This document shows positions 5,143-36,195 of a stretch of DNA of 64,000 bases, piece after piece; the stretch's first letter is position 1, and every line of letters begins with the position of its first letter. The stretch covers positions 20,916 through 84,915 of the forward strand of contig CAZIWL010000004.1 in NCBI GenBank assembly GCA_964542755.1, given 5' to 3'. The position numbers and the translations under genes were made by a program. The stretch comes from an uncultured Anaerolineales bacterium. Its GTDB lineage: Bacteria > Chloroflexota > Anaerolineae > B4-G1. Under the pieces are notes generated by a model. That model was not told the DNA's origin. It saw only the letters and a list, made by a program, of their open reading frames with translations, and ran no database searches.

Positions 5143-5605
5143 TAGGCGCTCGGCCGGGCTGCCCCGTCGGGCGCATGGGATGCGCTTGCTGCGGATCGCA
5201 CGGTGAACTCATGTAGGTCCGGCGTCCGGGGCTCCGTATTTGCTTGGAGGCACGGGGTCCGCTTGGACTGTGTGCAGTCCACAATGGATGGTCGCCGCAG
5301 GCATGGGGAGCCACCAAGGCGTTGACCATCCTCATAGGGTTCTATCCGTCTCTTCCCCAGTTATCTTCTGGTCCGCCTGTTCTACCCACGCCTTGGCACC
5401 CTGCCCAAACGGCCGCGCTATCGATTGGGATCGGAGAGTCGCGCCGAGGAGCCGATAGGACGTCCACCTGCCGGGTGACAGTGAACACGCCCCGTGCCTT
5501 GCTGGACGCCTGGCTTTTCTCTCCGTACCCGCCGCGACTGCAGACAGTTGGATGTCAAGGGCCGGCGCGTCTCTCTTCGGCTTATCTCCAGACACCGTCG
5601 AAGGA

Positions 5606-6295
5606 TCAGTCAAGCATGGCCTTAGCTCGTAGGCCTTCACGATCCAGGAGACGAATCTCGTCCCGATCTACTTCGATGAGTCCCTCGCGGGCAAGCTTAT
5701 GGAGCGCCCGGTTCAGGACGTCGACCACGGTGCCAAGTCGTGCGGCGATCTCCGCCTGGGTGGCCCACGGACGGCGCCGCAGGGTCTTACCCTCGGCCTG
5801 ATCTAAGAGGCGTCGCGCCAGTCGAGCCTCCACGGTCCTCAGAGAGAGATCCTCCACTATTGAGACGAGGTGGAGGACCCGTTGAGCGAGGCTTTCCATG
5901 ACCCGACGCGCCAGCATAGGATAGTCGTCCAGGAGGTGACGGATGGTGCGGCGGTCGATCAGCCAGAGCGTGGAGGACTCCAGGGCGATAGCGGTGGCCG
6001 GGTTCCGATCACCGGCGAAGACGCCCACTTCGTTGATCACCTCTCCCGGTCCAATGAAGCGGAGCACCTGCTCGCGGCCGTCGGTTGAGGTCCGAACGGC
6101 CTTGAGCCAGCCGTCCTGGACGAGGTAGAGGCCGGGACTTGGCTCGCCCTCGAAGAAGACGATGTCGTCCGCCTGATAGGCGCGGCGCACAGCGGCATTT
6201 GCCACCACGTCCAGGAGGTCGGAAGGCAGGTCAGTGAAGTATGAAACGGATGAGAATACCTGGTCGGGTGTGGACTGGTTCGTCGTTTCGGGCAT
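5606..6295 (-). CDS. Crp/Fnr family transcriptional regulator
   Basis: 229 aa. An N-terminal cNMP-binding beta-barrel (FFEGEPSPGLYLVQDGWLK, GPGEVINEVGVF) and a C-terminal HTH (ATQAEIAARLGTVVDVLNRALHKL). Confidence 0.85.
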   Translation of the reverse strand: MPETTNQSTPDQVFSSVSYFTDLPSDLLDVVANAAVRRAYQADDIVFFEGEPSPGLYLVQDGWLKAVRTSTDGREQVLRFIGPGEVINEVGVFAGDRNPATAIALESSTLWLIDRRTIRHLLDDYPMLARRVMESLAQRVLHLVSIVEDLSLRTVEARLARRLLDQAEGKTLRRRPWATQAEIAARLGTVVDVLNRALHKLAREGLIEVDRDEIRLLDREGLRAKAMLD

Positions 6296-6479
6296 CGGCT
6301 CTCCTATGAGTTAGCGAGCACGGCAGACGACATGGAGCCGGTCTGGCGCCGTGATCCGCTAGCCGAGTTACGCTTGTGCCTGCGGGAAGTCTGGCCCCAG
6401 GGGTCTGGGGAGCCGACGGAGCCTCGGGTTTGGGGCAAGGGGGGCTGCTCCTTGGAGGTCCAGGCACCCGACGGCGGTA

Positions 6480-8168
6480 TCACTCGGCTGCGTCCTGCGC
6501 ATCGGCGAGCAGTCCCAGCTGCTCCAAAGCCTCGATCATCTCTGGCCAATCGCCGCGGCGGACGACCACCGCTGTGGGACTGATGCGCTCCTCTACCAGA
6601 TGCGCCACGCGCCCCGACGCTAGGGCCCGCTCCATGATGGCTTCGTTGGTCGTTCTAAGGAGCACGGCCTGGTGCAAGCTCGCCTCCGTACCGCGTTCGT
6701 CCCACTGGGTCAGGGCTTCCCTCATATGGCGGGGCACGGGTCCCTGAAGGTGGTCCTCCAGGAATGTCAGCACGCGGGGGATGGTGATACGCTGTTCTTT
6801 GGCCCGCTGGAGAGATGCTGGGGTGAGCCGGTAGCGGTACCGTTCACCACTGTCGAGCCATTCGGCCACGCGGCCGACCTGGAAGCGCTCATACCTGCGT
6901 CCGATGGGCACCAGTAGCTGGAAGCCCGAGCGCAGGCGGATGGTCGGCGGCTCGGTAGGGACGGGCTGCTCCCTGAGACCTAGGATAGCCGCTCCTGCAT
7001 CGCTTAGGCGGAAGGCGCGGGGGGACTGACCGGGCTTTTCTGTACCAAGGTCGATGAGGCCCAGCCAGAACAAGGGCCCGGTGAGCAGGTACCGAATCAG
7101 TCGACCCTCGACTGCGTCCCAGCTCTCGAATCCTGACAAGTATGCGCCCGTGACGTCGTCCTTGATGTACCATGTCTCATAGTCCCCCGTCGGACGCTGG
7201 AAGTCTGGATCGACCCGCTTGATCTCTCCGACAAAGCGCTCGATCTCGAGCCAGGACGTGGGCGTGCAGGTGGCGAGATGCGCTAGGATTGCCTCGCGGG
7301 CGAGAAGTGGGTCGTTCCGCCACGCTCCCGTATCCTCAGGCTGCAAGGTAGGGACGTGAAAGAGATCGTTCCACGTCGGATCGTCCCGCCAACTCACGTA
7401 CATGAGCCGTCGCTGTTCGTTGGGCTGACTGGTGAGCCACTCAGTGACTGCGTCGGGTACCAGGCTGGCCCTTCTGGCATTTTGATCGGTGACCCAGCCG
7501 ATCCGACTGGCGAGGTGGCGGAGGAAGTGGAATCGATCTCGAGTCTGGTGCAACAAACGCGGCAACAGCTGCTTGTTGTGCCGGGCGGACCACGTTCCTT
7601 CAGACGAGTAAGCTGGTTGATGGTTGTGGACGTACGACAGGAATGTACAGGCATCTTCGAGGAGCTCGGCCCCCGCCGAATTGACGATGGGAGGAGGCGA
7701 AGCGGGGTCTAGCGAGAGGGCCGCCGTATCCTCCGCCGGCGCCGGGAGAAGGTCTAGGATCTCCGCAGGAATGGCGACGGCCTCGTAGGCCCCATCAGAC
7801 CCCTCGGCGAAGGTCTTGAAGAGGAAGCCGCTGTACCAAAGGGCCTCGGCAGGGGAGACAGGGTTCTCCCAGGGGTGCTCCCTATCCATGCGGCCCGGTC
7901 CCATCACGCGGATGTCTCCCCATTGACGGGCGAAGACGCGCTGCGGCAGCGTGCCTCCGCCGGCGGCGACAGTGCGCAGGGCTTCGCGCTGGTCGTTGGT
8001 CAGCTTTGCTCGGGCTGCGGCGACGGCCTCGGGAGAGGGCATCGCCTCTGCCAATTGTAACGCCATCTCACGGCGGCGGTGGCTCGTCAGAGGAATCTCC
8101 CAGAACTTGGCAATGACGTCCAGACGCAGCCGCTCTGTGTCCAGCAGGCTCTGTTGGAGTACAGGCAT
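6480..8168 (-). CDS. hypothetical protein (562 aa, no recognisable catalytic motif)
   Basis: Long ORF with coding-like composition, no Walker motifs and no TM segments. It reads as mixed alpha/beta with possible winged-helix-like segments (RYRYRLTPASLQRAKEQRITIPRVLTFLEDH). Confidence 0.55.
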   Translation of the reverse strand: MPVLQQSLLDTERLRLDVIAKFWEIPLTSHRRREMALQLAEAMPSPEAVAAARAKLTNDQREALRTVAAGGGTLPQRVFARQWGDIRVMGPGRMDREHPWENPVSPAEALWYSGFLFKTFAEGSDGAYEAVAIPAEILDLLPAPAEDTAALSLDPASPPPIVNSAGAELLEDACTFLSYVHNHQPAYSSEGTWSARHNKQLLPRLLHQTRDRFHFLRHLASRIGWVTDQNARRASLVPDAVTEWLTSQPNEQRRLMYVSWRDDPTWNDLFHVPTLQPEDTGAWRNDPLLAREAILAHLATCTPTSWLEIERFVGEIKRVDPDFQRPTGDYETWYIKDDVTGAYLSGFESWDAVEGRLIRYLLTGPLFWLGLIDLGTEKPGQSPRAFRLSDAGAAILGLREQPVPTEPPTIRLRSGFQLLVPIGRRYERFQVGRVAEWLDSGERYRYRLTPASLQRAKEQRITIPRVLTFLEDHLQGPVPRHMREALTQWDERGTEASLHQAVLLRTTNEAIMERALASGRVAHLVEERISPTAVVVRRGDWPEMIEALEQLGLLADAQDAAE

Positions 8169-8223
8169 GGTTCAGACATTATATACGGAGGGCGAGAGAA
8201 GGAACAGACGGTTCTCGTTATGG

Positions 8224-8251
8224 TTGCCGTTTGATGTGCGAGGGCTATAAT
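8224..8251 (+). promoter_or_regulatory. putative promoter (TTGCCG-N16-TATAAT) upstream of the DUF1232 gene
   Basis: TATAAT at 8246-8251 with a weak -35 at 8224-8229. A 15-bp tandem duplication follows immediately. Confidence 0.3.
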
Positions 8252-8281
8252 CTGGTGGGCATGGTCCTGGTGGGCATGGTC
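8252..8281. repeat. perfect 15-bp tandem duplication CTGGTGGGCATGGTC x2
   Basis: Read directly: 8252-8266 and 8267-8281 are identical. They lie between the -10 element and the DUF1232 start, in a divergent promoter region. Confidence 0.8.
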
Positions 8282-8310
8282 GCTGTTTGTTGAAGGTGAG
8301 GTGTGGTGCG

Positions 8311-8739
8311 ATGAATGAGGATCGACGGTCGATGGAAACGCAGCGAGAGGAAGAGGCGACGGTTCTGACCTGGCTCCGGGAAGGACTGCGGGATTTTCGA
8401 CTGGCCTGGCGTCTGTTCGTGGACAACCGGGTCCCCTTGTGGACCAAGATCGTCCCGCCGGCGGCCCTGGCCTACGTCTTGTCTCCGATCGACATCCTGC
8501 CGGATTTTCCCCCGATGGGGCTCAATCAGGTCGATGACCTGGCAGTGGTCATCCTGGGCGTGAAGCTATTCATCGAATTGGCGCCTCCAGAGGTGGTCCG
8601 CGAACACCTGGAGAAGCTGGGTGCACGGATTGAGGAATGGCGTGTGGTGGACGAGGACGAAGGTCCCGTGGTGGAGGGTCACTACGAGATTCGAGCGCCC
8701 AAACGTGATGACGGGAAGGGCACGCGGGCTGTGGACTAG
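8311..8739 (+). CDS. DUF1232 (YkvA-like) membrane protein
   Basis: Has the DUF1232 motif SPIDILPDFPPMGLNQVDDLAVVILGVKLF. The start is chosen at ATG 8311, preceded by GGTGAGGTG; the ORF track starts at TTG 8287. Confidence 0.7.
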   Translation: MNEDRRSMETQREEEATVLTWLREGLRDFRLAWRLFVDNRVPLWTKIVPPAALAYVLSPIDILPDFPPMGLNQVDDLAVVILGVKLFIELAPPEVVREHLEKLGARIEEWRVVDEDEGPVVEGHYEIRAPKRDDGKGTRAVD

Positions 8740-8766
8740 ATTGAGCGGCCGCGCTGGCTGCTCAAC

Positions 8767-10347
8767 CTACGGTGCCTCCCGTCCGACGTGGTAGAGTTGA
8801 GTTCCGTGCTTGTCGTAGAACGTGAAAGCGAGGGTGGGCGGGGTCTCCCCGGACGAAGGGGAGACCATGATCTCGAGAAAGCCCCCACCAGGCTCCTTCT
8901 GCTGATAGAGTTGGGAAATCCTCCCCTCGGGATCGGTGGATCCTTCATCCCCGGGCTGCGGGCCTAGACGCGAGCTGCCGTCCACCAGGGCGCCAGCGCT
9001 GAACTCCTCGAAGCCCGACGGATGGATCGAGTGGTACTGCCAGTGGCGATCCCCGCAGACAAAGTAGACCTCTTTCTCGTCGAGATCCTGGTCGAGTAGC
9101 CAGTCGAAGAAACCTTCTCCCTCGTCCCGAAAGCCGAAGGGGTTTGTGTGGTTATCTCGCTTCCTTCGATCTCCTGCCTGCCCTACGGGGTTGCCGCCAA
9201 ACAGGGGGGCCAGGAATCCGCCCTGCTTGCCGGTCCATGCGTCGTCGGGACCGACCATTGGCGTGGGGGAGATGATAATCTTGAATGTCGCGTCGCTCTC
9301 CTTCAGCGTACTTTGCAGCCACGCCTTCTGCTCCTCACCCCACATGGTCTTGCCAGGCCCCGGATCGGCTATGTTGGGATCTCGGTGGTCACGTCCCTCG
9401 AGGAGCCAGATCTGCAGGAGGTCGTTGATCCGGTGGGTCCGGTAGGTGACGGCGTCTTGAACAAAGGGGTCGACAACCGGCACCTGCTCCAGGAAAACGC
9501 TTGCACCGACCTCAGGTAGCGGCTCGATGGTTCCGTAGGGATCGGCGTCGTCGTACCGGTAGTCGTGGTCGTCCTTTATCCAGTAACTGGGCACGGCCCG
9601 GAAGAGGGCTCTGAACCGCGGGGTGGCGAACTGCTTGTGCCACTTGGCGCGCATCGATTCTTGCTTTCGAGCACGGCCCAGGGCAGGACAGTCGTAGTAG
9701 ACGCTGTCCCCGGTGCTCACGAAGTAGTCGGGCTCCCTTGCGACGATGGTCTCCAGCGAGGGGAAGCCCAGTATCCTCTGCCGGAAACGGAAGTCCCTCA
9801 GTACTGTGGCTCGGAAGCTGTAACGGTGCATGGAGGTGACGGCGATGAGCCGCGTCTCGCGGGCGACGCCCCTTTCGTCCAGGGTGCGAAACGTGCCGGT
9901 GGGCCCCGCCTGGGCGGAGGACGGGTCGGGCCCCGAGAGCATCCTGTAGTAGTAGCGCGAGCCAGCGTCAAGGCTTTGGATGGCTTGCTTGACGATGAAA
10001 TCGCCCTCATCCGTGGCTTCCGTCCAGTCGGTGAGGAGAGCATCCTGGAAGCCCGGGTCCTTCGATAGGGCGAAGGCTGCCACGCCGGGTTGTCCCTGTA
10101 CATCCCCGAATGCGGCCGTGGGTTTGGTTGCCAGCCGGGCGCGGAGAATGACCGAATGGCGTGTCACCTCGCCAGCCATCTCGCCCTGCCAGTGCAGCGT
10201 AGGCTGGAGCGCGCCGCTCACTGACGGGTCTTCTCCCTGTGTCCCCGCTTCTGGCTGGCCAGGGGAAGCGCACCCTAGCAGTAGGGCGATGGAGATGAAG
10301 AGTGTGACGGGTATCGAGGGATATCTAGGTTGGATTTCACTGGACAT
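8767..10347 (-). CDS. PhoD-like phosphatase / metallophosphoesterase lipoprotein
   Basis: Lipoprotein signal MSSEIQPRYPSIPVTLFISIALLLGC with lipobox LLGC. An AAGGAG RBS sits 6 nt before ATG 10347; the track ORF extends to 10419. PhoD-like motifs STGDSVYYD, WIKDDHDYRY and GDRHWQYH. Confidence 0.8.
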   Translation of the reverse strand: MSSEIQPRYPSIPVTLFISIALLLGCASPGQPEAGTQGEDPSVSGALQPTLHWQGEMAGEVTRHSVILRARLATKPTAAFGDVQGQPGVAAFALSKDPGFQDALLTDWTEATDEGDFIVKQAIQSLDAGSRYYYRMLSGPDPSSAQAGPTGTFRTLDERGVARETRLIAVTSMHRYSFRATVLRDFRFRQRILGFPSLETIVAREPDYFVSTGDSVYYDCPALGRARKQESMRAKWHKQFATPRFRALFRAVPSYWIKDDHDYRYDDADPYGTIEPLPEVGASVFLEQVPVVDPFVQDAVTYRTHRINDLLQIWLLEGRDHRDPNIADPGPGKTMWGEEQKAWLQSTLKESDATFKIIISPTPMVGPDDAWTGKQGGFLAPLFGGNPVGQAGDRRKRDNHTNPFGFRDEGEGFFDWLLDQDLDEKEVYFVCGDRHWQYHSIHPSGFEEFSAGALVDGSSRLGPQPGDEGSTDPEGRISQLYQQKEPGGGFLEIMVSPSSGETPPTLAFTFYDKHGTQLYHVGREAP

Positions 10348-10825
10348 CGACGGGGGCTCCTTGGATGTCTGGGTCAACCACGACTGGGAAGCCAACGCCA
10401 CCATGGCGAGAGATGACAACCTCCGGCTGGTGCGTGCTGCGAGCTGGTCAGCGCCGTCGAAAAGCTGCTCCTGGTCGTCGAAGATGACGGGCGGGAACCG
10501 GCTCTGGCAGGCGGTCTTCGGGCCGACCAGGTCCCGGAGGGGCGGTACCCGATCGGGGCGTTCAGTGTGCCTCGAACCGCCGCCCTGAGTTCCGCAACGG
10601 GGGGCGGCGGCTTGACGTCACTCTCGGCGATAGCGCGCCAGGCTGTCGGGAGGGTCAGGGGCAAGTGGCGGTCCTCAGTCCGTCGGAATGCGATGGGTCT
10701 CATAACGCTGCGCTCGGTGTGCGCTGGTCGGATAATGGGAGATTGATTGACGAACCAACGGGCCGGATTGTACGGTCTTCCCGAGCCATGTCAAGGCGTG
10801 AGCCTTGCATGGAGAAGCAGCCCAG

Positions 10826-10857
10826 TTGTCAGGGCGGGGGGGTAAGAGTATACTCTT
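10826..10857 (+). promoter_or_regulatory. putative promoter TTGTCA-N17-TATACT for the aor operon, with a 14-bp perfect palindrome AAGAGTATACTCTT over the -10
   Basis: TTGTCA at 10826-10831, TATACT at 10849-10854, and a palindrome at 10844-10857 as a candidate operator. This leaves an untranslated leader of about 215 nt before the GTG at 11074. Confidence 0.45.
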
Positions 10858-11073
10858 TCCGAAGGGGACGGTCAGCGGCAAACCTTACGTGAGGATGCGC
10901 GCGATCATCCGTGCTGTACCTGCAACTCTGCGTCTCCGGCGGTTCCGTGTCGATGCTGCCCGTGTCGTTGCCGGTTGACCGCCGTGCTTCGACTCGATAT
11001 CGAAACCGTTTCTGAGACGGGCGGGGCACTGAGGCTTGAAGCGGATCCGAGTGGTGAGAAAGCGAGGTAGATT

Positions 11074-13035
11074 GTGCCTGGAGGATACTTTGGAAGGGTG
11101 CTCGTCGTTGACCTCTCGCGGGGAGTGCTGGGGGTCGAAACGTTGCCCGAGTCCGCCTACCGGGACGTCCTGGGCGGATACGGGCTGGGCGTCAAGCTCC
11201 TTTACGAGCGGATGCCGACTGGGGCCGACCCGCTGGGGCCCGAAAACATCCTCGGATTCCTCCCCGGCTTGCTCACGGGTTCTGGGGTCCTGTTCGGAGG
11301 GCGGTTTATGGTGGTGGCCAAGTCCCCGCTCACCGGGGGATGGGGTGATGCCAATTGCGGCGGTCACTTCGGCCCCGTCCTTCGGTCCACAGGCCTGGAC
11401 GGCGTCCTTGTGAAGGGTGTTGCCGAGCGACCGGTGACCTTGATGATCGATGAGAACGGCGCGTCGATCGAGGATGCGGGACCACTCTGGGGCCTGGATA
11501 CGTGGGAGACCGAGGAACGGCTCAAGGAGAGGACAGGCCGCGGTGCGCAGGTGGTGACGATCGGGCCGGCCGGGGAGAACCAATCGTTGATCGCGGCCAT
11601 CATCACGGACGGGGGCCGCGCCGCGGCCCGCTCTGGCCTTGCCGCTGTGATGGGGGCTAAGCGGCTCAAGGCCGTGGTGGCCCGGGGCAGAGAGCGGGTG
11701 CACCTCCACGATAAGGAGACACTGACCGAGGTCAGCCGGGACTACGGGCGCATCTTCAAGAAGCCATCCTCACCCGTCTCGAGGGTGCTCTTCGGGTGCA
11801 CGAAGACGTTCGCTCCCGTAATCAGAGTGATCGGGATCAAGCCGTCGGGCCCGGCAGATACGATCATCTACCTGTACAAGAAGTATGGTACCAGCGGCGC
11901 CACGGCCTTCACGACCGAAGTGGGGGATGCCCCGGTCTGGAACTGGCGGGGTGTAGGTGCGCGCGACTTCCCGCTCCGCCAAAGCAAGCGCGTCAGTGAC
12001 GAGGCGGTGATCAAATACCAGGTGAAGAACTACGGGTGCCGCTATTGTCCCGTGGCCTGCGGTGGGATCGTCCACATGGACGGGGAGCGGTACCAGGTGG
12101 AGGAGGCGCACAAGCCCGAGTACGAGACACTGGCGGCTTTTGGGCCGCTGCTGCTCAACGATGACCTGGAGACCATCGTCAAGGTCAACAGCTTGTGCGA
12201 CCGCTACGGTCTGGACACGATCTCAACGGGTACGGTAGCTGCCTTCGCGATGGAGTGCGCCGAGTACGGCTTGATCGATCGGGTGCTGGGCGACGGTGTG
12301 GAACTCTCCTGGGGCAACGGTGACGCTGTGGTCCATCTGGTCGGATTGATTGCGCGTCGTGAGGGCATCGGCGATCTTCTGGCGGATGGAGTGAAGCGGG
12401 CTGCCGAGCGGATCGGCGGAGAAGCCCCTTCCTTCGCGATGCACGCCGGCGGGCAAGAGCTGCCGATGCACGATTCGCGATACGAGCCGGGGCTGGGTTT
12501 AGCTTACGCCGTGGATCCGACGCCGGGCCGCCACAACACGGCGAACGGCGGCATCCTGGATGCCCCGATCTTGCGAACGATGCTGGCCGATAAGGGGCTT
12601 TCGCCGCCCAAACGGTATGCATATGAGAACAAGGGCACGGAGTTCGCGTTGCTGAACCGGTACCTCCAGGTGTTGAATTGTGCCGGGCTGTGCATGTTCT
12701 CGCTGGTGATGAGCGAGCCGCCGCTGCTGGACTGGCTCAACGCCGCGACGGGGTGGGGGTGGAGCCTGGAGGATATGCTCGAAGCAGGCCACCGCATCCA
12801 AGTGCTGCGCCACGCATTCAACCTCCGTGAAGGTCTCCCCGCGACTGGCTTCGAGCTGCCCCCGCGAGCGCTAGGAAGGCCTCCGCTCGAAGAAGGACCT
12901 CTGCGAGGTGTCACCCTGGACATGGAGGCGATGAAACGAGACTACTTCAACTGCATGGGCTACGACCCTACCGGCGTCCCCACCCCGGAGCTACTTGCGT
13001 CACTGGGGCTGTCGACCCTCCTCGAGGATCTGTAG
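11074..13035 (+). CDS. aor: aldehyde:ferredoxin oxidoreductase (tungsten/molybdopterin AOR family)
   Basis: 653 aa. The N-terminus MPGGYFGRVLVVDLSRG...GGYGLG is typical of the AOR N-terminal domain; GGHFGP, CxxC...C cluster ligands (CRYCPVAC) and length match AOR. Confidence 0.9.
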   Translation: MPGGYFGRVLVVDLSRGVLGVETLPESAYRDVLGGYGLGVKLLYERMPTGADPLGPENILGFLPGLLTGSGVLFGGRFMVVAKSPLTGGWGDANCGGHFGPVLRSTGLDGVLVKGVAERPVTLMIDENGASIEDAGPLWGLDTWETEERLKERTGRGAQVVTIGPAGENQSLIAAIITDGGRAAARSGLAAVMGAKRLKAVVARGRERVHLHDKETLTEVSRDYGRIFKKPSSPVSRVLFGCTKTFAPVIRVIGIKPSGPADTIIYLYKKYGTSGATAFTTEVGDAPVWNWRGVGARDFPLRQSKRVSDEAVIKYQVKNYGCRYCPVACGGIVHMDGERYQVEEAHKPEYETLAAFGPLLLNDDLETIVKVNSLCDRYGLDTISTGTVAAFAMECAEYGLIDRVLGDGVELSWGNGDAVVHLVGLIARREGIGDLLADGVKRAAERIGGEAPSFAMHAGGQELPMHDSRYEPGLGLAYAVDPTPGRHNTANGGILDAPILRTMLADKGLSPPKRYAYENKGTEFALLNRYLQVLNCAGLCMFSLVMSEPPLLDWLNAATGWGWSLEDMLEAGHRIQVLRHAFNLREGLPATGFELPPRALGRPPLEEGPLRGVTLDMEAMKRDYFNCMGYDPTGVPTPELLASLGLSTLLEDL

Positions 13036-13046
13036 GAGACGGAGAG

Positions 13047-14576
13047 ATGGAGCTAATCTACGACGCAGACGCTGATCTGGGCCTTTTGGACGACAAGACC
13101 ATCGCGGTCATCGGCTACGGGAACCAGGGCCGCGCCCAGGCCCTCAATCTCCGGGACAGCGGTCTCCGGGTCATCGTGGGTAACCGGGATGATGCCTACG
13201 CGGAGAGGGCGCGATCCGATGGTCTCCGAGTCGTGGCGATCGAGAAAGCTGCCGTCGAAGCCGACGTCCTCCTCTTCTTGATCCCTGACGAGGTCATGCC
13301 AAACGCATTCGAGCGGGATGTGGTGCCTGGGCTCAAGCCCGGGGACGTGCTGGTCTTCTCCTCGGGATACGCGATTGCCTTCGGCCTGCTCCGGCCGCCG
13401 AAGGACATTGACGTGGTGCTCGTCGCGCCCCGGATGATCGGCCAAGGGGTGCGCGACCACTACGTGGCCGGGAGCGGCTTCCCATCCTTCTTGGGCGTCG
13501 AGCAGGATTACACGGGCCAGGCGAGGGGGATAGCCCTGGCCATCGCGAAAGGCATCGGTTCGACCCGCGCTGGTGTGGTCGAGGTGTCATTCGCGGAGGA
13601 GGCAGAGCTGGATCTCTTCACGGAGCAGTGCTTCGGCCCCGCTTTCGGAAGGGTGTTGACGACTGCGGTCGAGCTGCTCCTGGAAGAGGGGTATCCGCCC
13701 GCCGCGGTCCTGCTGGAGCTCTACATGTCGGGTGAGTTCGCCTACACGATGGCGAAGATCGCCGAGATGGGCATTGTAGAGCAGAGCCAGCTTCACAGTC
13801 GGACGAGCCAGTACGGATCGATGACCCGCGGCATGCGGTTCCAACTACCGGGGCTGCGGGAGAAGATGTTGGAGGGGCTGGAGGAGATTCGAAGCGGTGC
13901 GTTCGCGCGGGAATGGGAGGCTGAGCAGGAGGAAGGGGCGCCCACGCTCGACATGCTGAAGGCATCGGCTCGATCGCTGCCACTCTACGAGCTTGAGCGG
14001 GACCTGCGTGAGGCACTCCGAGGGAGCCCTGGCCTGGGCCCCCAGCTGCGCCGAAGGGGCGTAGCTCCTGACCGCCGTCCAGAGCGAAAGAGGGACCGGG
14101 GGCTACCTGAGCGCATATTCGGCTTGATTGGGCGGTTGCTGGGACGCGGGAGACGAGTTGAGGGTGGGTACGAGGCATTGGATTCCCTCCCCGCTGATGC
14201 AATGAAGCTTATCTTAGAGCGCTTCGTGGACCTCGCCATCGATGATCCCGCCCTGCGTGGGTTCGCGGACGGGCGCAAGGTGACGACCCAGTACGTGCTG
14301 CGTGACTCCGACTTGTCGTTCTACTTAACCTTCGTGGAGGGCGGCGTGAAGGGTGGCGTCGGGATGCCCCCTGAGCCGGTCGAGGTCCGGTTGGAGATGG
14401 ATGCGGAGGTGTTGGATGGGATGCTGACGGGCACCATCAACGCTGCTCGTGCCGCGATGTCGGGGAGGGTGTCCTTCGAGGGCGATACCCGACGCGCCAT
14501 GACGGTACAGAGGATTCAAGGCGACCTGACCAGGCTCTACCGACAGGCACGGCGCGAGGCGCTGAGGCATGAATAG
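13047..14576 (+). CDS. ilvC: ketol-acid reductoisomerase (class I KARI) fused to a C-terminal SCP2 sterol-carrier-like domain
   Basis: Residues 1 to about 335 are KARI (IAVIGYGNQGRAQALNLRDSG Rossmann fold, knotted C-domain). A basic Arg/Pro-rich linker follows, then about 120 aa matching SCP2 (TQYVLRDSDLSFYLTFVEGGVKGG...MSGRVSFEGDTRRAMTVQRIQ). The gene starts 12 nt downstream of aor, so co-transcription is likely. Confidence 0.85.
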   Translation: MELIYDADADLGLLDDKTIAVIGYGNQGRAQALNLRDSGLRVIVGNRDDAYAERARSDGLRVVAIEKAAVEADVLLFLIPDEVMPNAFERDVVPGLKPGDVLVFSSGYAIAFGLLRPPKDIDVVLVAPRMIGQGVRDHYVAGSGFPSFLGVEQDYTGQARGIALAIAKGIGSTRAGVVEVSFAEEAELDLFTEQCFGPAFGRVLTTAVELLLEEGYPPAAVLLELYMSGEFAYTMAKIAEMGIVEQSQLHSRTSQYGSMTRGMRFQLPGLREKMLEGLEEIRSGAFAREWEAEQEEGAPTLDMLKASARSLPLYELERDLREALRGSPGLGPQLRRRGVAPDRRPERKRDRGLPERIFGLIGRLLGRGRRVEGGYEALDSLPADAMKLILERFVDLAIDDPALRGFADGRKVTTQYVLRDSDLSFYLTFVEGGVKGGVGMPPEPVEVRLEMDAEVLDGMLTGTINAARAAMSGRVSFEGDTRRAMTVQRIQGDLTRLYRQARREALRHE

Positions 14577-24017: not shown

Positions 24018-25043
24018 ATGGGGATCTCAGAGGCTTGGGCAGACGCCTGGATGCAGGTACAAGAGATGGCGATCAACTTCTTGACGGCACTGCCGCAGAT
24101 CACCTTGGCGCTGGTGGTGTTTGGTGTCTTCTACTTCGTGGCCAACTGGGTGAAAGCCTTTGTGCGGCGGGTGGCCCAGGCTGCGGAGCTGACGCCAGGG
24201 GCGGAGATGGTCCTGGCCCGACTGGCGCGTTGGCTGGTTGTTGTCGTAGGGCTCCTCATCGCGCTGACGATCGCGGTGGAGAGCTTCGAACCGGGGCAAC
24301 TCATCCAGCTTCTCGGCATCAGCAGCGTGGCCATAGGCTTCGCGTTCCACGACATTCTCCAGAACTTCCTGGCCGGTATTCTCCTCTTGCTGACCGAGCC
24401 ATTCAAGATCGGCGACCAAATCATCGTCAACGATTTCGAGGGCACGGTGGAAAATGTGGAAACGCGGGCGACGACGCTGAAGACGTACGACGGGCGCCGG
24501 GTCGTCATCCCTAATGCCCACCTCTTCACGGAGTCCGTGATTGTCAACACAGCGTTTCCTGTCCGGCGGTCCGAGTATCGGGTGGGGATCGGCTACAGCG
24601 ACGACATTGCCCAAGCGATGGGACTGATGTTGGACGTGATGGGTGAGGTCGAGGGCGTCCTCGAGCATCCCGCGCCGGACGTGCTGGTGGCCGAGCTGGG
24701 TGACTTCAGCGTGAACATCCGCGCCCGGTGGTGGACGGATTCGGTGCGCTCCAATGTGCTCAAGATCCAGAGCGAGGTGATCGCCAGGATCAAGGAGCGC
24801 CTGATTGGGCACGGGATCGATCTGCCGTTCCCGACGCAGCAGTTGCTCTTCCACGATCAGACGGAGGAGACGGACGGCGATCGCACTCAACAGCGCGAAG
24901 GTTGGCCTGCAGGCGACCAGGCGGTACCCTCGTCGCGCACTGTCGCGGGTTCGCTGGGGCGCCTAGAGGACGTGCTGAAGACCCGTCCGGTGTCAGAGTC
25001 CCTGGTAGGTGGGCTCGCGGACGAGGAGACGGATGAGGCCTAG
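24018..25043 (+). CDS. mechanosensitive ion channel MscS family protein
   Basis: Three N-terminal TM helices, then the MscS beta-domain motif PFKIGDQIIVNDFEGTVENVETRATTLKTYDGRRVVIPN, then an acidic C-terminal tail. Confidence 0.85.
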   Translation: MGISEAWADAWMQVQEMAINFLTALPQITLALVVFGVFYFVANWVKAFVRRVAQAAELTPGAEMVLARLARWLVVVVGLLIALTIAVESFEPGQLIQLLGISSVAIGFAFHDILQNFLAGILLLLTEPFKIGDQIIVNDFEGTVENVETRATTLKTYDGRRVVIPNAHLFTESVIVNTAFPVRRSEYRVGIGYSDDIAQAMGLMLDVMGEVEGVLEHPAPDVLVAELGDFSVNIRARWWTDSVRSNVLKIQSEVIARIKERLIGHGIDLPFPTQQLLFHDQTEETDGDRTQQREGWPAGDQAVPSSRTVAGSLGRLEDVLKTRPVSESLVGGLADEETDEA

Positions 25044-33458: not shown

Positions 33459-33474
33459 AGTGGGAGGCAGTGCG

Positions 33475-35145
33475 ATGGATCACGACAAAGGGGATCTGGA
33501 GCAAGCTCGTGATAGGTGGCGGGCATCCACGCTGCAGGACACGCTGGAACGGCATGCTGAGCGCGCACAGAGCTTCATCACGGCCTCCGGTGAGACTGTC
33601 GAGAGGCTCTACACACCTCTGGACATCGATGGGACTTACGGCGAGAAGCTTGGGCTTCCGGGGGAGTACCCGTTCACTCGAGGGATCCACGCCACAATGC
33701 ATCGTGGGCGGCTCTGGACTATGCGCATGTTTGCTGGGTTCGGAACGGCGGAAGAGACGAATCAGCGTTTCCGATACCTGCTCGACCAGGGGCAGACGGG
33801 GCTCTCTGTGGCCTTCGACCTGCCCACGTTGATGGGGTACGACAGCGACGCGCCCGAGGCGGAAGGGGAGTTTGGAAAATGCGGCGTGGCGGTCTCCTCA
33901 CTCCGCGATATGGAGGTCCTGTTTCGAGGTATCCCGCTGGACAAGGTGACCACCTCGATGACGATCAACAGCCCGGCGGCCGTGATCTGGGCGATGTACA
34001 TCGTTGCTGCCGAGAAGCAGGGGGTCGGTATGAAGGAGCTCGGCGGCACCCTTCAGAACGACATCTTGAAGGAGTACATGGCGCAGAAGGAGTACGTCTT
34101 TCCTCCAGAACCCTCGATGCGTCTGGTCACGGACACGGTCGAGTTCGGCAGCGAGCACCTGCCCCGCTGGAACACGATCTCCATCTCCGGGTATCATATC
34201 CGCGAGGCAGGATCAACGGCAGCGCAGGAGTTGGCATTCACGCTTGCGGACGGGATGGAGTACGTGCGGTGGGGGCTGGACCGTGGCCTGGACGTGGACG
34301 CCTTCGCACCCCGGCTCTCGTTCTTCTTCAACTGTCACAACGACTTTTTGGAGGAGATCGCCAAGTTCCGTGCCTCGCGGCGCATTTGGGCGCGCGAGAT
34401 GCGTGAAACCTTCGGAGCCAAGGAAGAGCGCTCGTGGTGGATGCGATACCACACGCAGACGGCCGGCTGTTCGCTGACGGCGCAGCAGCCAGAGATCAAC
34501 GTCGTCCGTGTCGCGATACAGGCACTGGCCGCTGTTCTGGGAGGCACCCAGTCTCTCCACACCAACAGCATGGATGAAGCACTGGCGCTCCCGAGCGAGC
34601 ATGCCGTGACGGTAGCACTCCGCACCCAGCAGATTATTGGGCACGAGAGCGGAGTGGCGAACACCGTCGATCCTTTGGGTGGAGCGTACGCCGTGGAGGC
34701 CCTAACGGATCGCATTGAGAAGCAGGTCTACGACTACTTCGAGAGAATCGAGGCCCTCGGCGGCGTGATTCCGGCGATCGAGCAGGGGTTCTTCCAGCAG
34801 GAGATTGCCGATGCCGCCTTCCGCTATCAGCGTGAGATCGACGAGCGGAAGCGGCTGGTTGTGGGCGTCAATGAGTACGTAGAGGAGGAACCACCTAGGA
34901 TTCCGATCCTGCGCATAGATTCGGAGGGGTATGCGAAGCAGAAGGCTCGGCTGAAGCAGGTGCGCGAGGAGCGGGACAGCGGGGCTGTCGGTCAGGCGCT
35001 GGACCGCTTGCGGGTAGCAGCCGAAGGCACCGAGAACACAATGCCCCATATTCTGGATGCCGTGCGCGCCTATGCCACGGTCCAGGAGATTATGGACGTC
35101 TTCCGTGATGTGTTCGGCATCTACCGGGAACCGATGGTCATCTGA
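33475..35145 (+). CDS. methylmalonyl-CoA mutase family catalytic (alpha, substrate-binding TIM-barrel) subunit without a B12-binding domain
   Basis: Conserved MCM N-domain motifs [41 protein letters not shown] and [12 protein letters not shown]. It ends before any B12-binding Rossmann module. ATG 33475 is preceded by GGGAGG; the track start is 33460. Confidence 0.85.
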
Positions 35146-35223: not shown

Positions 35224-36195
35224 CTACTTGTCCATGATCGTGGAGAGATTGTACAGGTCCTTGTCGAGTTCCTTCTGGTAGGTGACCGCCTCGTCAAGGG
35301 GAAGGATGTGGAAATCGCTATTGAGCCATCCGACCATATGACCGGAATTGCCCCCCACGAGTTGTCTGACCGCTTCCGCTCCCAGCCTTGTGGCCAGGAT
35401 TCGATCGAACGCACTGGGGGACCCGCCACGCTGCACGTGTCCCAGCCGTGTGACCCGCACTGAGAAGCCAAGCTCTTCCTCGCGCGCATTTAGCTCCCGG
35501 GCGATCTCGTCCGTACCGGGTTTCCAACCCTCAGCGACCACGATAATAGCGTGGGCCTTGCCCCGAATGTAGGCTTTTTCGACGGTCTCGGCCACATCGT
35601 CGAGCGTCGACTCGATCTCCGGACAGAGCACCAGCTCAGCACCCCCGGCGAGGCCGCTGGCGAGAGCAAGATAGCCTGAGTTCCGTCCCATCGTCTCGAT
35701 AAGGAAGGCGCGGTTGTGGGAAGAGGCCGTGTCCTTGATCTTGTCGATGGCCCCTAGAATGGTGTTCAGGGCCGTATCGACGCCGATCGATATATCGGTC
35801 CCGTTGATGTCATTGTCGATCGTGCTGGGAATGCCCATGGTGGGGAAGTCCAGACGATGGAGCTCCAGCGCACCTGTCAAGGATCCATTTCCTCCGATAA
35901 CGACCAGGCCGTCGATGTCGAAACGGTTCAAGGTACGGAGTGCCTTCCGCCGTCCCTGCAGCGTCTCAAACTCCGGGGCTCTGGCGGTGCCTAGGATCGT
36001 CCCCCCACGACCGAGGATGCCGCCCACGTCCCGGGCATCCATCTCGTCGATCTCTCCCGCGATCAAGCCGGCGTAGCCGCGGCGAATGCCCATCATCTCC
36101 ACACCCTCGTGGAGTCCCATGCGCACCACGGCGCGGATGCACGGGTTCAGCCCGGAGTTGTCCCCGCCACTAGTTAAAACACCTATTCGATCCAT
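35224..36195 (-). CDS. pfkA: 6-phosphofructokinase, ATP-type group with atypical GGNGS / PSTIDND motifs
   Basis: MDRIGVLTSGGDNSGLN, ETMGRNSGYLAL and RVTRLGHVQRGG are all PFK hallmarks. ATG 36195 is preceded by AGGAGG; the track ORF runs to 36282. Asn replaces the Asp of the canonical GGDGS motif. Confidence 0.85.
   Translation of the reverse strand: MDRIGVLTSGGDNSGLNPCIRAVVRMGLHEGVEMMGIRRGYAGLIAGEIDEMDARDVGGILGRGGTILGTARAPEFETLQGRRKALRTLNRFDIDGLVVIGGNGSLTGALELHRLDFPTMGIPSTIDNDINGTDISIGVDTALNTILGAIDKIKDTASSHNRAFLIETMGRNSGYLALASGLAGGAELVLCPEIESTLDDVAETVEKAYIRGKAHAIIVVAEGWKPGTDEIARELNAREEELGFSVRVTRLGHVQRGGSPSAFDRILATRLGAEAVRQLVGGNSGHMVGWLNSDFHILPLDEAVTYQKELDKDLYNLSTIMDK

What the first reader, a model, noticed from the sequence alone, without database searches (positions are those of the whole stretch)
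11074..14576. Tungsten-type aldehyde:ferredoxin oxidoreductase co-transcribed with a KARI-SCP2 fusion protein
The KARI-like gene starts 12 nt after the aor stop. It is not next to ilvBN/ilvD-type genes, and it carries a C-terminal SCP2 sterol-carrier/lipid-binding domain joined by a basic Arg/Pro-rich linker.

SCP2 domains normally bind hydrophobic ligands. Their fusion to a ketol-acid reductoisomerase is unusual, and pairing with an AOR suggests a redox pathway acting on aldehyde and 2-hydroxy/2-keto acid intermediates distinct from housekeeping branched-chain amino acid synthesis. It could be a paralog recruited to new chemistry.
Basis: partly seen in the sequence, partly recalled or inferred. 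Interest (0 to 1): 0.55.

Follow-up and report, generated by a model that had tools for sequence, protein, structure and literature searches.

The report
KARI paralog tethered to lipid-carrier domain
A divergent copy of a branched-chain amino-acid enzyme is fused to a sterol-carrier-type domain and sits in an operon with an aldehyde oxidoreductase; this fusion is a conserved, undescribed family in Anaerolineae bacteria and probably works outside amino-acid synthesis, possibly on lipid-linked sugar-like compounds.

Summary
An AOR-family gene (11074-13035) is followed after 11 nt by a 509-aa KARI_N+KARI_C+SCP2 protein (13047-14576). SCP2 passes Pfam's threshold.

The fusion is not a one-off. 119 of the 120 best database clusters share the architecture, all named ones from Anaerolineae/Chloroflexota, and no paper in the searchable library describes it.

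The KARI domain belongs to the divergent "KARI-2" clade (nearest structure Sso-KARI, 6JCV). Canonical His and Lys are replaced by Ser and Arg, and two residues are inserted between the Glu metal ligands. None of about 90 clade loci has flanking ilv genes.

In 26 fusion contexts the neighbours were:
- exported PhoD-like lipoprotein: 11
- Tat-exported sulfatase: 10
- LarA-like 2-hydroxyacid racemase: 7
- AOR directly upstream: 7

AOR is therefore a recurrent but optional partner.

The same rare SCP2 subtype (164 hits in 1.84 billion representatives) is also fused to class II aldolase, D-2-hydroxyacid dehydrogenase and FGGY kinase. One KARI is fused directly to the aldolase. Some of these genes, and unfused KARI-2 genes, lie inside hopanoid (shc/hpn) clusters.

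Best reading: an accessory reductoisomerase in an aldehyde/2-hydroxy-acid module, possibly acting on amphiphiles. Paralogy and substrate remain unproven.

The parts
11074..13035 (+). Aldehyde:ferredoxin oxidoreductase family gene (653 aa), first gene of the two-gene operon
   Evidence: AFOR_N 1.1e-70 and AFOR_C 8e-107. Nearest solved structure is P. furiosus AOR 1aor, E 1.1e-96. The sequence shows C322-x2-C325-x3-C329 plus C540 (Fe-S ligand pattern), D376RYGLD and E343EAH. An identical protein exists in a JGI metagenome (P0279).
13047..14576 (+). KARI-SCP2 fusion gene (509 aa)
   Evidence: ORF; domains; TIGR00465 ilvC 257.5 bits (cut-off 226), NF004017 284.8 bits (cut-off 336). 119 of the 120 best database clusters share the architecture.
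13086..14015 (+). KARI catalytic part (Rossmann domain res 14-176 and knotted domain res 182-323) of the KARI-2/Sso-KARI clade
   Evidence: Pfam. Close sequence match to PDB 6jcv 'putative KARI 2' (E 2.9e-75; second in the list after the synthetic 5e4r). Active-site columns: Ser106 for His, Arg129 for Lys; Asp189, Glu193, Glu224, Glu230 and Ser251 kept; 2-residue insertion in ELYMSGE. Cofactor loop G-NRDDAY with invariant Asp49.
14019..14198 (+). Basic, disordered Arg/Gly/Pro-rich linker (res 325-384)
   Evidence: 14 R, 11 G, 6 P, net +7. pLDDT 29-45. Variable length and sequence across the family.
14199..14573 (+). SCP2 domain (res 385-509)
   Evidence: PF02036 38.3 bits > 21.3. Predicted helix-helix-4 strands-2 helices-strand-helix fold with pLDDT about 90. 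Rare subtype: 164 hits at E<=1e-3 in 1.84 billion representatives.
8767..10419 (-). PhoD-like phosphoesterase lipoprotein, divergently transcribed; recurrent neighbour of the fusion
   Evidence: PhoD_N and PhoD. Lipobox LLLGC in the N-terminus. Adjacent to the fusion in 11 of 26 contexts.
10548..10679 (-). Remnant (first 44 codons) of a LarA-like racemase gene that is intact at this position in relatives
   Evidence: tblastn with the L002 LarA-like protein: 66% identity over residues 1-44, E 1e-11. The gene is intact in L002 between PhoD and AOR.
10767..10875 (.). Divergent promoter-like region between the PhoD/larA-remnant side and the AOR operon
   Evidence: Three sigma-70-like matches versus 0.7 expected. 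These are consensus matches only.

Best explanation
SHOWN. The 509-aa protein combines three parts:
- a class-I KARI-fold enzyme of the divergent KARI-2 (Sso-KARI-like) clade;
- a flexible basic linker of about 60 residues;
- a folded SCP2 ligand-binding domain.
It is translated from the same operon as an AOR-family enzyme. It belongs to a conserved Anaerolineae gene module. In its fullest form the module reads LarA-like racemase > exported PhoD-like phosphoesterase > AOR > KARI-SCP2. In other lineages it reads Tat-exported sulfatase <> KARI-SCP2.

INFERRED.
1. It is an accessory paralog, not the housekeeping ilvC.
2. The KARI domain keeps Mg2+/NAD(P)H-dependent alpha-hydroxy-carbonyl chemistry, interconverting 2,3-dihydroxy acid, 3-hydroxy-2-oxo acid and 2-hydroxy-3-oxo acid. 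The Asp-containing cofactor loop hints at NADH use.
3. AOR supplies or removes the carboxylate by interconverting the matching alpha-hydroxy-aldehyde and 2-hydroxy acid, with ferredoxin as partner.
4. The LarA-like enzyme sets the C2 configuration.
5. The exported esterase frees the substrate from a phosphate or sulfate ester outside the cell.
6. The SCP2 domain holds a hydrophobic part of the substrate. The substrate would then be an amphiphile with a sugar-like or hydroxy-acid head.
7. The ribose-derived side chain of C35 hopanoids, or a similar lipid-linked pentose or polyol, is the leading concrete candidate. The reason is that the same SCP2 subtype and unfused KARI-2 genes occur inside hpn/shc clusters.
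For: - Domains and operon.
- Family: 119 of the 120 best clusters are fusions. Fusions are monophyletic in an NJ tree.
- Clade signature: His->Ser, Lys->Arg and the ELYMSGE insert, shared with 6jcv.
- No ilv neighbours in any clade locus.
- The PDB name 'putative KARI 2' implies paralogy in Sulfolobus.
- The fusion occurs in only about 24 of 185,579 species genomes scanned, as expected for an accessory gene.
- Tally of 26 fusion contexts: PhoD-like 11, sulfatase 10 (gaps 11-82 nt, both gene orders), LarA-like 7, AOR 7.
- L071 is a tight LarA>PhoD>AOR>KARI-SCP2 operon.
- Esterases carry lipobox or Tat signals.
- The LarA-like protein is nearest to malate racemase.
- Rosetta-stone links:
  - a stand-alone SCP2 gene directly upstream of unfused KARI-2 in 11 Dehalococcoidia/Chloroflexota loci;
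  - a KARI-class II aldolase fusion in L023;
  - SCP2-aldolase, 2HADH-SCP2-aldolase and FGGY-2HADH-SCP2-aldolase proteins.
- The same AOR orthogroup (50-64% id) lies upstream of those giant genes in 6 loci, directly abutting in 3. A decayed KARI sits between AOR and the giant gene in L080.
- Lipid/hopanoid links:
  - dxs-hpnD-hpnE-shc(+HpnG-like)-KARI2-SDR in Acidimicrobiales;
  - the giant gene next to HpnA (481 bits) and HpnH (549 bits) in L133;
  - the giant gene in SHC-HpnG-like-HpnB... in L146/L150;
  - HpnA/SdmB-like, steroid-5alpha-reductase-family, lipid kinase and PlsY around KARI-SCP2 in L073.
Against: - No hopanoid or lipid gene was found in the window: shc/hpnA/hpnD/hpnE queries gave no hit across all 64 kb, and the ORFs Pfam-scanned up to about 47 kb show none.
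- Only one of 26 Anaerolineae fusion contexts (L073) has lipid genes.
- The hpn links come from distant unfused relatives (about 43% id, with Ser251->Gly) or from a different SCP2-bearing protein.
- SCP2's fusion partners (sugar kinase, aldolase, hydroxy-acid dehydrogenases) fit soluble sugar-acid metabolism equally well. So do an AOR ortholog in a galactarate-dehydratase-like/PfkB operon and a sugar ABC transporter upstream of Acidianus KARI-2.
- The esterases are extracellular while KARI-SCP2 is cytoplasmic, so their link may be regulatory.
- The protein passes the TIGR00465 ilvC equivalog cut-off. Its closest structural relative is deposited as a ketol-acid reductoisomerase (Sso-KARI), and the literature cited describes it as NADH/NADPH-bispecific. 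Housekeeping activity is therefore not excluded.
- The presence of a canonical ilvC in this genome could not be tested.
- AOR persists without the fusion in syntenic relatives.
Confidence: 0.45

Rival explanations
1. Housekeeping enzyme with a decoration. The fusion is the organism's ordinary ketol-acid reductoisomerase (branched-chain amino acids, possibly also ketopantoate reduction). The SCP2 domain serves assembly, localisation or regulation. The neighbours are irrelevant synteny.
For: - It passes the TIGR00465 ilvC equivalog cut-off (257.5 > 226).
- All Mg2+/substrate ligands except His and Lys are kept.
- The nearest structure, Sso-KARI, is deposited as a ketol-acid reductoisomerase, and the literature cited describes it as NADH/NADPH-bispecific.
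- No second KARI lies in the 64-kb window.
- Databases name it simply KARI.
Against: - It is below the NF004017 and NF009940 equivalog cut-offs.
- It is never next to ilv genes in about 90 loci.
- It is present in only about 24 species genomes of the scan.
- Its neighbours are conserved with shuffled gene order, which argues for selection on linkage.
- The SCP2 link is conserved as a separate adjacent gene in another class.
- The fusion partner is swapped for an aldolase in L023.
- A KARI gene has decayed to a remnant in L080, which is hard to reconcile with an essential gene.
Confidence: 0.2
2. Soluble sugar-acid catabolism. The module degrades a small hydroxy-acid or sugar (tetronates, a branched sugar acid such as apionate, or 6-deoxyhexose products such as lactaldehyde/lactate). 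The substrate is released from sulfated or phosphorylated glycans by the exported esterases. AOR oxidises an aldose or aldehyde to the acid, LarA epimerises C2, and KARI acts as an oxido-isomerase. The SCP2 domain is a non-lipid scaffold or channeling module.
For: - The SCP2 subtype is fused to FGGY sugar kinase, D-2-hydroxyacid dehydrogenase and class II aldolase/decarboxylase-type domains.
- L076 has an AOR>galactarate-dehydratase-like>PfkB operon.
- The sulfatase has an SGSH_C carbohydrate-sulfatase-type region.
- A sugar ABC transporter lies upstream of Acidianus KARI-2.
- Known tetronate and apionate pathways use exactly the 2-oxo/3-oxo isomerisation and C2 oxidation with group migration (PMC12994016).
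Against: - It gives no reason for a lipid-carrier fold to be conserved in every architecture, including as a stand-alone adjacent gene.
- It does not explain the hpn/shc, HpnA-like, steroid-reductase-like, lipid kinase and PlsY neighbours.
- No sugar isomerase or transporter was seen in the Pfam-annotated fusion contexts, and none recurs in the neighbour clusters of the 80 giant-gene loci.
Confidence: 0.25
3. AOR adjacency is incidental. The AOR is a general aldehyde-detoxifying or fermentative enzyme that happens to lie upstream, and the KARI-SCP2 module was inserted beside it.
For: - L074 and L075 keep DUF1232>AOR>GH25>HDAC synteny with a 70-72% identical AOR but no KARI-SCP2, PhoD or LarA.
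- 19 of 26 fusion contexts lack AOR.
- L001 and L003 have the PhoD/LarA/KARI-SCP2 module elsewhere, without AOR.
Against: - AOR is directly upstream of the fusion (from a 4-nt overlap to a 118-nt gap) in 7 contigs from at least 4 sub-branches with different outer neighbours.
- The same orthogroup lies upstream of the other SCP2-bearing gene in 6 loci, directly abutting it in 3.
- L080 preserves an AOR-KARI remnant-giant gene order.
- AOR identity tracks KARI identity.
Confidence: 0.3

Closest known systems
Sso-KARI, 'putative ketol-acid reductoisomerase 2' of Saccharolobus solfataricus (PDB 6JCV and related entries)
   Same: - Same KARI-2 clade.
- About 44-45% identity in structural alignments.
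- Shares the clade motifs GYGNQGR, FASGY (Ser for His), APRM (Arg for Lys), LLE(L/F)Y(M/A)SGE and HSxTSQYG.
- Asp-containing cofactor loop. The literature describes it as NADH/NADPH-bispecific (reference list of PMC8615647).
   Different: - No linker and no SCP2 domain.
- Archaeal.
- Its physiological role is also unknown.
Canonical class I IlvC (e.g. PDB 7Q03, 1NP3, 4YPO)
   Same: - Same two-domain fold.
- Same Mg2+ ligand set (Asp, 4 Glu) and substrate Ser.
- E-values from 1e-66 down to 1e-53.
   Different: - Canonical His and Lys are replaced.
- 2-residue insertion between the two C-domain Glu.
- Cofactor loop one residue shorter.
- Not in an ilv operon.
- C-terminal SCP2 extension.
BurG of Burkholderia (PDB 7PCC-7PCT), a KARI homolog in malleicyprol toxin biosynthesis
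   Same: A class-I KARI-fold protein (E 1.5e-63; Foldseek hit). Its deposited entries are titled 'Biosynthesis of cyclopropanol rings in bacterial toxins' and include hydrophobic ligands such as 2,3-dihydroxy-6-methyl-heptanoate. This is a precedent for a KARI paralog working outside amino-acid synthesis.
   Different: - No SCP2 domain.
- Different clade and context (secondary-metabolite cluster).
- No sequence-level evidence of shared specificity.
SCP2-domain fusions: SCPx/MFE-2 in peroxisomal lipid oxidation, the alkylsulfatase C-terminal domain (PF14864), UbiT/UbiJ
   Same: - A catalytic domain joined to an SCP2 fold thought to present a hydrophobic substrate (established knowledge).
- Weak PF14864 co-hits in this subtype.
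   Different: - The partner enzymes here are sugar or hydroxy-acid enzymes (KARI, 2HADH, FGGY, class II aldolase), not thiolases, dehydrogenases of acyl-CoA or sulfatases.
- Ligand unknown.
Pyrococcus furiosus aldehyde:ferredoxin oxidoreductase (1AOR)
   Same: - Best structural relative of the upstream gene (E 1.1e-96).
- Fe-S Cys pattern and pterin-binding motifs are present.
   Different: - About 48 residues longer.
- Bacterial.
- Metal (W or Mo), electron partner and substrate untested.
- No adjacent ferredoxin or AorAC-type subunits.
C35 hopanoid side-chain pathway (HpnH, HpnG, then an unassigned step from ribosylhopane to bacteriohopanetetrol)
   Same: - Unfused KARI-2 genes and the giant SCP2-bearing fusion lie in shc/hpn clusters.
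- The step after HpnG has no assigned enzyme in a 2026 review (PMC13459092).
- Ribosylhopane is an alpha-hydroxy-aldehyde on a lipid, which would suit an AOR/KARI/SCP2 combination (inference).
   Different: - No hpn gene was found in the window (whole-window tblastn for four hpn proteins; Pfam on ORFs up to about 47 kb), nor in 25 of 26 fusion contexts.
- No activity data.
- Anaerolineae are not established hopanoid producers.

Membership tests
Ketol-acid reductoisomerase (class I) | KARI_N and KARI_C domains above curated thresholds | tested here: met
   195.9 bits (cut-off 20.6) and 80.6 bits (cut-off 29.1).
Ketol-acid reductoisomerase (class I) | Scores above NCBIfam/TIGRFAM equivalog cut-offs for ilvC | tested here: inconclusive
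   TIGR00465 257.5 > 226.15. But NF004017 284.8 < 336 and NF009940 221.1 < 406.
Ketol-acid reductoisomerase (class I) | Eight conserved polar active-site residues (His, Lys, Glu, Asp, Glu, Glu, Glu, Ser; list recalled from the E. coli mutagenesis literature) | tested here: not met
   His->Ser106 and Lys->Arg129. Glu187, Asp189, Glu193, Glu224, Glu230 and Ser251 are kept, and 2 residues are inserted between Glu224 and Glu230. The same pattern is seen in 6jcv.
Ketol-acid reductoisomerase (class I) | Genomic association with ilvBN/ilvD/leu genes (typical, not obligatory) | tested here: not met
   None in the window. None in about 90 loci of the clade.
Ketol-acid reductoisomerase (class I) | Converts (S)-2-acetolactate to 2,3-dihydroxyisovalerate; complements ilvC | not testable with these tools
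   Needs an enzyme assay or genetics.
SCP2 sterol-carrier domain | PF02036 above the gathering score | tested here: met
   38.3 bits > 21.3, E 1.8e-9. It is conserved in 119 of 120 relatives.
SCP2 sterol-carrier domain | Alpha/beta fold of five strands flanked by helices | tested here: met
   The AF2 model of residues 385-509 has helices 386-398, 401-406, 453-461, 466-471 and 481-507. It has strands 411-418, 423-430, 433-438, 447-451 and 475-479. pLDDT is about 90.
SCP2 sterol-carrier domain | Binds a hydrophobic ligand | not testable with these tools
   Needs ligand-binding experiments.
AOR family (tungsto-/molybdopterin aldehyde oxidoreductases) | AFOR_N and AFOR_C domains; four Cys for the [4Fe-4S] cluster; pterin-binding DxxGL(C/D) motifs | tested here: met
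   C322/C325/C329/C540, D376RYGLD and N535CAGLC. 1aor at E 1.1e-96.
AOR family (tungsto-/molybdopterin aldehyde oxidoreductases) | Tungsten rather than molybdenum in the cofactor | not testable with these tools
   Sequence does not discriminate. No Moco/Tuco riboswitch in the leader.
Hopanoid (hpn) biosynthesis cluster | shc, hpnH, hpnG or hpnA in the neighbourhood | tested here: not met
   tblastn with SHC, HpnA-like, HpnE and HpnD proteins found nothing in the 64-kb window. hpnH and hpnG were not used as queries. Pfam of the ORFs scanned up to about 47 kb also shows none. The feature is met only for distant relatives and for the other SCP2-bearing protein.
LarA (nickel-pincer 2-hydroxyacid racemase) module partner | Intact Lar_N-containing gene next to the fusion | tested here: not met
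   Only a 44-codon remnant at 10548-10679. The gene is intact in L001-3, L010, L017, L071 and L072.

The most novel reading that the evidence does not exclude
KARI-2 enzymes and the SCP2-tethered sugar-type enzymes (FGGY kinase, D-2-hydroxyacid dehydrogenase, class II aldolase), with the associated AOR and LarA-like racemase, form a previously unrecognised toolkit. It would apply pentose and sugar-acid chemistry to a lipid-anchored substrate. Specifically, it would act on the ribose-derived C5 side chain of C35 hopanoids. That would supply the missing enzymology after HpnG: ribosylhopane to bacteriohopanetetrol, its C-34 epimers, or C32/C35 acids. In non-producers such as these Anaerolineae it would instead allow salvage or catabolism of such lipids.
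Probability: 0.15. Interest if true: 0.85.

Novelty: new variant of a known kind. Interest (0 to 1): 0.6.

Why it matters
Databases annotate KARI as a one-function enzyme, and they call every member of this family simply 'ketol-acid reductoisomerase'.

If the fusion is a neofunctionalised paralog, several things follow:
- Automatic reconstructions of branched-chain amino-acid synthesis in Anaerolineae and other KARI-2 carriers (Asgard archaea, Dehalococcoidia, Acidimicrobiia) are partly wrong.
- A new, widely distributed enzyme module awaits a substrate.
- The network of fusions (KARI-SCP2, KARI-aldolase, SCP2-aldolase, kinase-dehydrogenase-SCP2-aldolase) gives a concrete candidate set for the still unassigned steps of hopanoid side-chain formation or turnover. 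Several of these genes lie inside hopanoid clusters. This question matters for interpreting hopanoid biomarkers.

The clade's Asp-containing cofactor loop also marks these enzymes as candidate NADH-using KARIs for biotechnology.

Tried and rejected
- **Literature.** No paper holds both 'ketol-acid reductoisomerase' and 'SCP2' in a relevant sense. 'Sso-KARI' has no hits. The top-ranked 15 of 1,615 papers in the SCP2/Chloroflexota search contained no occurrence of SCP2. 'hopanoid' plus KARI returned only three papers whose titles show no connection; they were not opened.
- **Riboswitch in the AOR leader (e.g. Moco/Tuco).** No Rfam match at E<=1.
- **Domain orientation.** The AF2 monomer gave a confident Rossmann domain and SCP2 domain but a poor knotted domain and a disordered linker. 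Nothing can be said about how SCP2 faces the active site. Foldseek against the PDB returned only KARI chains in the listed top 50.
- **Second KARI or ilv genes in the window.** None. This does not settle the genome-wide question.
- **Hopanoid genes in the window or in Anaerolineae fusion loci.** None, except an HpnA/SdmB-like gene in L073 and a weak one in L019.
- **First reading that SCP2 simply implies a lipid substrate.** This was weakened after its closest relatives turned out to be fused to sugar-type enzymes. It was partly restored by the hpn-cluster contexts.
- **AOR as an obligatory partner.** Rejected.
- **Gene calling.** Longest-ORF gene calling in high-GC actinobacterial loci produced spurious antisense ORFs (e.g. 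clusters c51, c52, c70). These were ignored.

Full report
**1. The observation**

They are separated by 11 nt that contain GGAG motifs. No terminator-like site lies between them, and promoter-like matches occur only upstream of the first gene.

Pfam assigns AFOR_N and AFOR_C to the first protein. It assigns KARI_N, KARI_C and SCP2 to the second. SCP2 scores 38.3 bits against a gathering score of 21.3.

The linker (res 325-384) has 14 Arg, 11 Gly and 6 Pro, with net charge +7. An AlphaFold model built on 31 family members gives a confident Rossmann domain, a disordered linker (pLDDT <40) and a confident SCP2 fold at 385-509.

The ORFs scanned up to about 47 kb encode ordinary housekeeping and envelope genes and no ilv gene. 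No second KARI occurs anywhere in the window. Only 'tungsten-type' is beyond what sequence can show.

**2. The fusion is a family, not an accident**

The 120 best hits in a 5.8-billion-protein collection are all about 500-540 aa and full-length (57-94% identity). Of these, 119 carry PF02036. The few that are named are 'ketol-acid reductoisomerase' from Anaerolineae/Chloroflexota MAGs.

The alignment shows a highly conserved KARI part, a variable linker and a moderately conserved SCP2 part. No paper in the searchable library mentions this architecture.

**3. What kind of KARI**

Among natural proteins the closest solved structure is 6jcv, 'putative ketol-acid reductoisomerase 2' of Sulfolobus (Sso-KARI). 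It scores E 2.9e-75, second in the list after the synthetic domain-duplicated 5e4r.

A genome scan was run with two clade-specific peptides, LDLFTEQC and LELYMSGE, over 185,579 species genomes. It returned 65 loci:
- Fusions occur only in Anaerolineae-type Chloroflexota, in about 24 species.
- Unfused relatives occur in Asgard archaea, Bathyarchaeia, Thermoproteota, Acidianus, Dehalococcoidia/SAR202, Acidimicrobiia, Myxococcota and Planctomycetota.

Two canonical KARIs were aligned for comparison. Against them, nearly the whole clade replaces the active-site His by Ser and Lys by Arg. It inserts two residues between the two C-domain Glu ligands, and its cofactor loop is one residue shorter and contains Asp. 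The fusions keep the substrate Ser. The Dehalococcoidia/Acidimicrobiia sub-branch has Gly there.

The protein passes one ilvC equivalog cut-off and fails two. In an NJ tree the fusions are monophyletic and sister to Asgard sequences.

From my own knowledge, and from the citation in PMC8615647, Sso-KARI is an active, NADH/NADPH-bispecific KARI. The Ser/Arg variant is therefore catalytically competent on acetolactate in vitro. This keeps the housekeeping rival alive.

**4. Neighbourhoods**

I examined 26 fusion contexts.

| Neighbour | Contexts | Loci |
|---|---|---|
| AOR ortholog directly upstream | 7 | window, L002, L004/5, L007, L071, L157, L158 |
| PhoD-like protein adjacent | 11 | see calls above |
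| LarA-like protein adjacent | 7 | plus a 44-codon remnant in the window at 10548-10679 |
| Sulfatase in tight operon (11-82 nt gaps, both gene orders) | 10 | L006, L009, L011-16, L020, L034 |
| No esterase | 5 | L007, L019, L022, L073, L158 |

Two such predictions were tested and both held.

L071 shows the fullest form as one operon, LarA>PhoD>AOR>KARI-SCP2, with gaps of 1-24 nt.

The PhoD-like proteins have lipoprotein signal peptides and the sulfatases have twin-arginine signals. The LarA-like protein is nearest to malate racemase.

AOR is facultative. L074 and L075 are syntenic with the window (DUF1232>AOR>GH25>HDAC>DUF3243>SDR>photolyases) and carry a 70-72% identical AOR, but they have no fusion, PhoD or LarA. 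In another relative the AOR ortholog heads an operon with a galactarate-dehydratase-like gene and a PfkB kinase.

No clade member in any locus is next to ilv genes.

**5. The SCP2 link is functional, and the subtype has telling partners**

In 11 Dehalococcoidia/Chloroflexota loci a stand-alone SCP2 protein of about 140 aa (PF02036, 43.6 bits) is encoded immediately upstream of the unfused KARI-2 gene. This is the classic split form of a fusion.

Searching the SCP2 part alone against 1.84 billion representatives gave only 164 hits at E<=1e-3. Their architectures are:
- KARI-SCP2;
- SCP2-class II aldolase;
- D-2-hydroxyacid dehydrogenase-SCP2(-aldolase);
- FGGY kinase-2HADH-SCP2(x1-2)-aldolase proteins of 1,280-1,485 aa;
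- stand-alone or tandem SCP2.

One named example is from Anaerolineaceae. L023 encodes a KARI fused directly to a class II aldolase domain instead of SCP2.

A metagenome scan with the SCP2-aldolase alignment returned 80 loci, 63 with the full kinase-dehydrogenase-SCP2-aldolase gene. In six of them an AOR 50-64% identical to the window's lies upstream. In three (L080, L082, L109) it directly abuts the giant gene, usually behind a GntR regulator. In L080 a decayed KARI gene (residues 1-56 joined to 294-324) survives between the AOR and the giant gene.

AOR, KARI, SCP2, class II aldolase, 2HADH and FGGY kinase therefore form one associated set.

**6. Lipid and hopanoid contexts**

- In Acidimicrobiales (L049, L050, L054, L057) the unfused KARI-2 follows dxs, hpnD-like and hpnE. 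It also follows a squalene-hopene cyclase carrying an HpnG-like C-terminal domain (TIGR01507, 730 bits), and an SDR follows it.
- In L035 the order is SCP2>KARI-2>unknown>HpnA-like.
- In L133 the giant SCP2-bearing gene neighbours HpnA (481 bits, cut-off 368) and HpnH (549 bits, cut-off 225).
- In L146/L150 the giant gene lies in SHC>HpnG-like>HpnB (396 bits, cut-off 379)>...>B12-radical SAM.
- HpnA-like genes occur in 14 of the 80 loci.
- One Anaerolineae fusion (L073) is flanked by an HpnA/SdmB-like gene, a steroid-5alpha-reductase-family gene, a YegS-type lipid kinase and PlsY.
- A 2026 review still lists no enzyme for ribosylhopane to bacteriohopanetetrol (PMC13459092).

**7. Interpretation**

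*Shown.*
- The gene structure.
- The family.
- The clade signature.
- The neighbour statistics.
- The network of fusions.

*Inferred.*
- The fusion is an accessory paralog. The grounds are its rarity among species genomes, the absence of any ilv context, the conserved non-ilv neighbours, the replaceable fusion partner and a decayed copy.
- The KARI domain retains alpha-hydroxy-carbonyl redox/isomerase chemistry.
- It works with AOR (aldehyde <-> acid) and a LarA-type racemase on 2-hydroxy acids.
- The SCP2 domain supplies a hydrophobic handle.

Two substrate classes remain open. One is a lipid-anchored sugar-like head group, with the hopanoid side chain as the best concrete candidate. The other is a soluble sugar acid, where known tetronate and apionate pathways use the same isomerisation logic (PMC12994016).

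The window itself offers no lipid gene. The hopanoid reading therefore rests on relatives and is given only about 0.15 probability.

The housekeeping reading (about 0.2) cannot be excluded without the complete genome or an assay.

**8. Verdict**

The finding is real.

It is a new variant of a known enzyme kind. It is conserved and unannotated as such, and it connects to a wider undescribed set of SCP2-tethered enzymes.

Interest 0.6.

Noticed in passing
window 10548-10679 (-): A 44-codon remnant of a LarA-like racemase gene (66% identical to the N-terminus of the intact gene in L002) lies in the 650-nt gap between the PhoD-like gene and AOR. The gene has been deleted in this lineage.
   Followed up: yes
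L023 7000-8661 (+): An Anaerolineales MAG encodes a KARI-2 domain fused to a class II aldolase/adducin-family domain (553 aa) instead of SCP2. The aldolase part is sub-threshold for every specific subfamily (FucA, AraD, Ru1P aldolase, OtnC, all about 100-114 bits).
   Followed up: partly
L077-L156 (e.g. L105 1097-5002; L146 6613-10632): A widespread family of 1,280-1,485-aa proteins combines FGGY kinase (best match autoinducer-2 kinase/xylulokinase, sub-threshold), D-2-hydroxyacid dehydrogenase, one or two SCP2 domains and class II aldolase. I found no description of them in the library.
   Followed up: partly
L133 5458-7613; L146 2-6416; L150: The giant SCP2-bearing gene sits inside bona fide hopanoid clusters: HpnA 481 bits, HpnH 549 bits, SHC, HpnG-like, HpnB 396 bits and a B12-radical SAM gene. 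Two conserved unknown genes and a lipoprotein gene (clusters c27, c28, c8) lie there too.
   Followed up: partly
L080 3950-4135: Between an AOR gene and the giant kinase-dehydrogenase-SCP2-aldolase gene lies a frame-shifted, internally deleted KARI remnant (residues about 1-56 and 294-324).
   Followed up: yes
L049 6409-8946; L050; L054; L057: Acidimicrobiales squalene-hopene cyclase carries a C-terminal HpnG-like phosphorylase domain (PNP_UDP_1; TIGR03468 63.5 bits). It is followed by an unfused KARI-2 gene and an SDR, downstream of dxs, hpnD-like and hpnE.
   Followed up: partly
L048, L051, L055, L056, L059, L063, L064, L066, L067 (about 5400-12500): In Dehalococcoidia/SAR202 the SCP2>KARI-2 pair is embedded in a co-directional run. 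By sequence inspection the run reads MTA phosphorylase, rhodanese, SAH hydrolase and SAM synthetase upstream. A phosphogluco/mannomutase (Pfam-confirmed) lies downstream. The reason for this methyl-cycle context is unexplained.
   Followed up: no
L074 and L075 (whole loci): Close relatives of the window's organism keep the same gene order around a 70-72% identical AOR but lack the KARI-SCP2, PhoD-like and LarA-like genes. L075 has a Ni_insertion (LarC-type) gene nearby.
   Followed up: partly
L076 6001-10465: An AOR ortholog (64% identical) heads an operon with a galactarate-dehydratase-like gene (337 bits, below cut-off) and a PfkB kinase. This suggests that this AOR orthogroup can act on sugar aldehydes.
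   Followed up: no
L127 3041-11452; L128 1469-10998: The operon reads GntR regulator > AOR > class-III aminotransferase (best match PigE-type lipid-aldehyde aminotransferase) > (peptidase-like) > HpnA-like > giant SCP2 fusion. Two aldehyde-consuming enzymes sit side by side.
   Followed up: no
L038 9974-12840; L039: In a Thermoproteota MAG an unfused KARI-2 (with Ser/Lys rather than Ser/Arg) is convergent with an AOR-family gene 54 nt away. A Bathyarchaeia locus has an AOR 4 kb away. This may be chance, since L038 itself carries two AOR-family genes within 10 kb.
   Followed up: no
window 25009-27576 (+); 54491-59464 (-); 59797-63867 (-): An 855-aa ORF has no Pfam match. Two very large ORFs (1,657 and 1,356 aa) were not examined. 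The last 4 kb of the window has a strongly negative AT skew (-0.20 to -0.23).
   Followed up: no
window 35224-37572 (-): Two adjacent phosphofructokinase-family genes (352 and 427 aa) lie next to a methylmalonyl-CoA mutase large-subunit gene (33460-35145).
   Followed up: no
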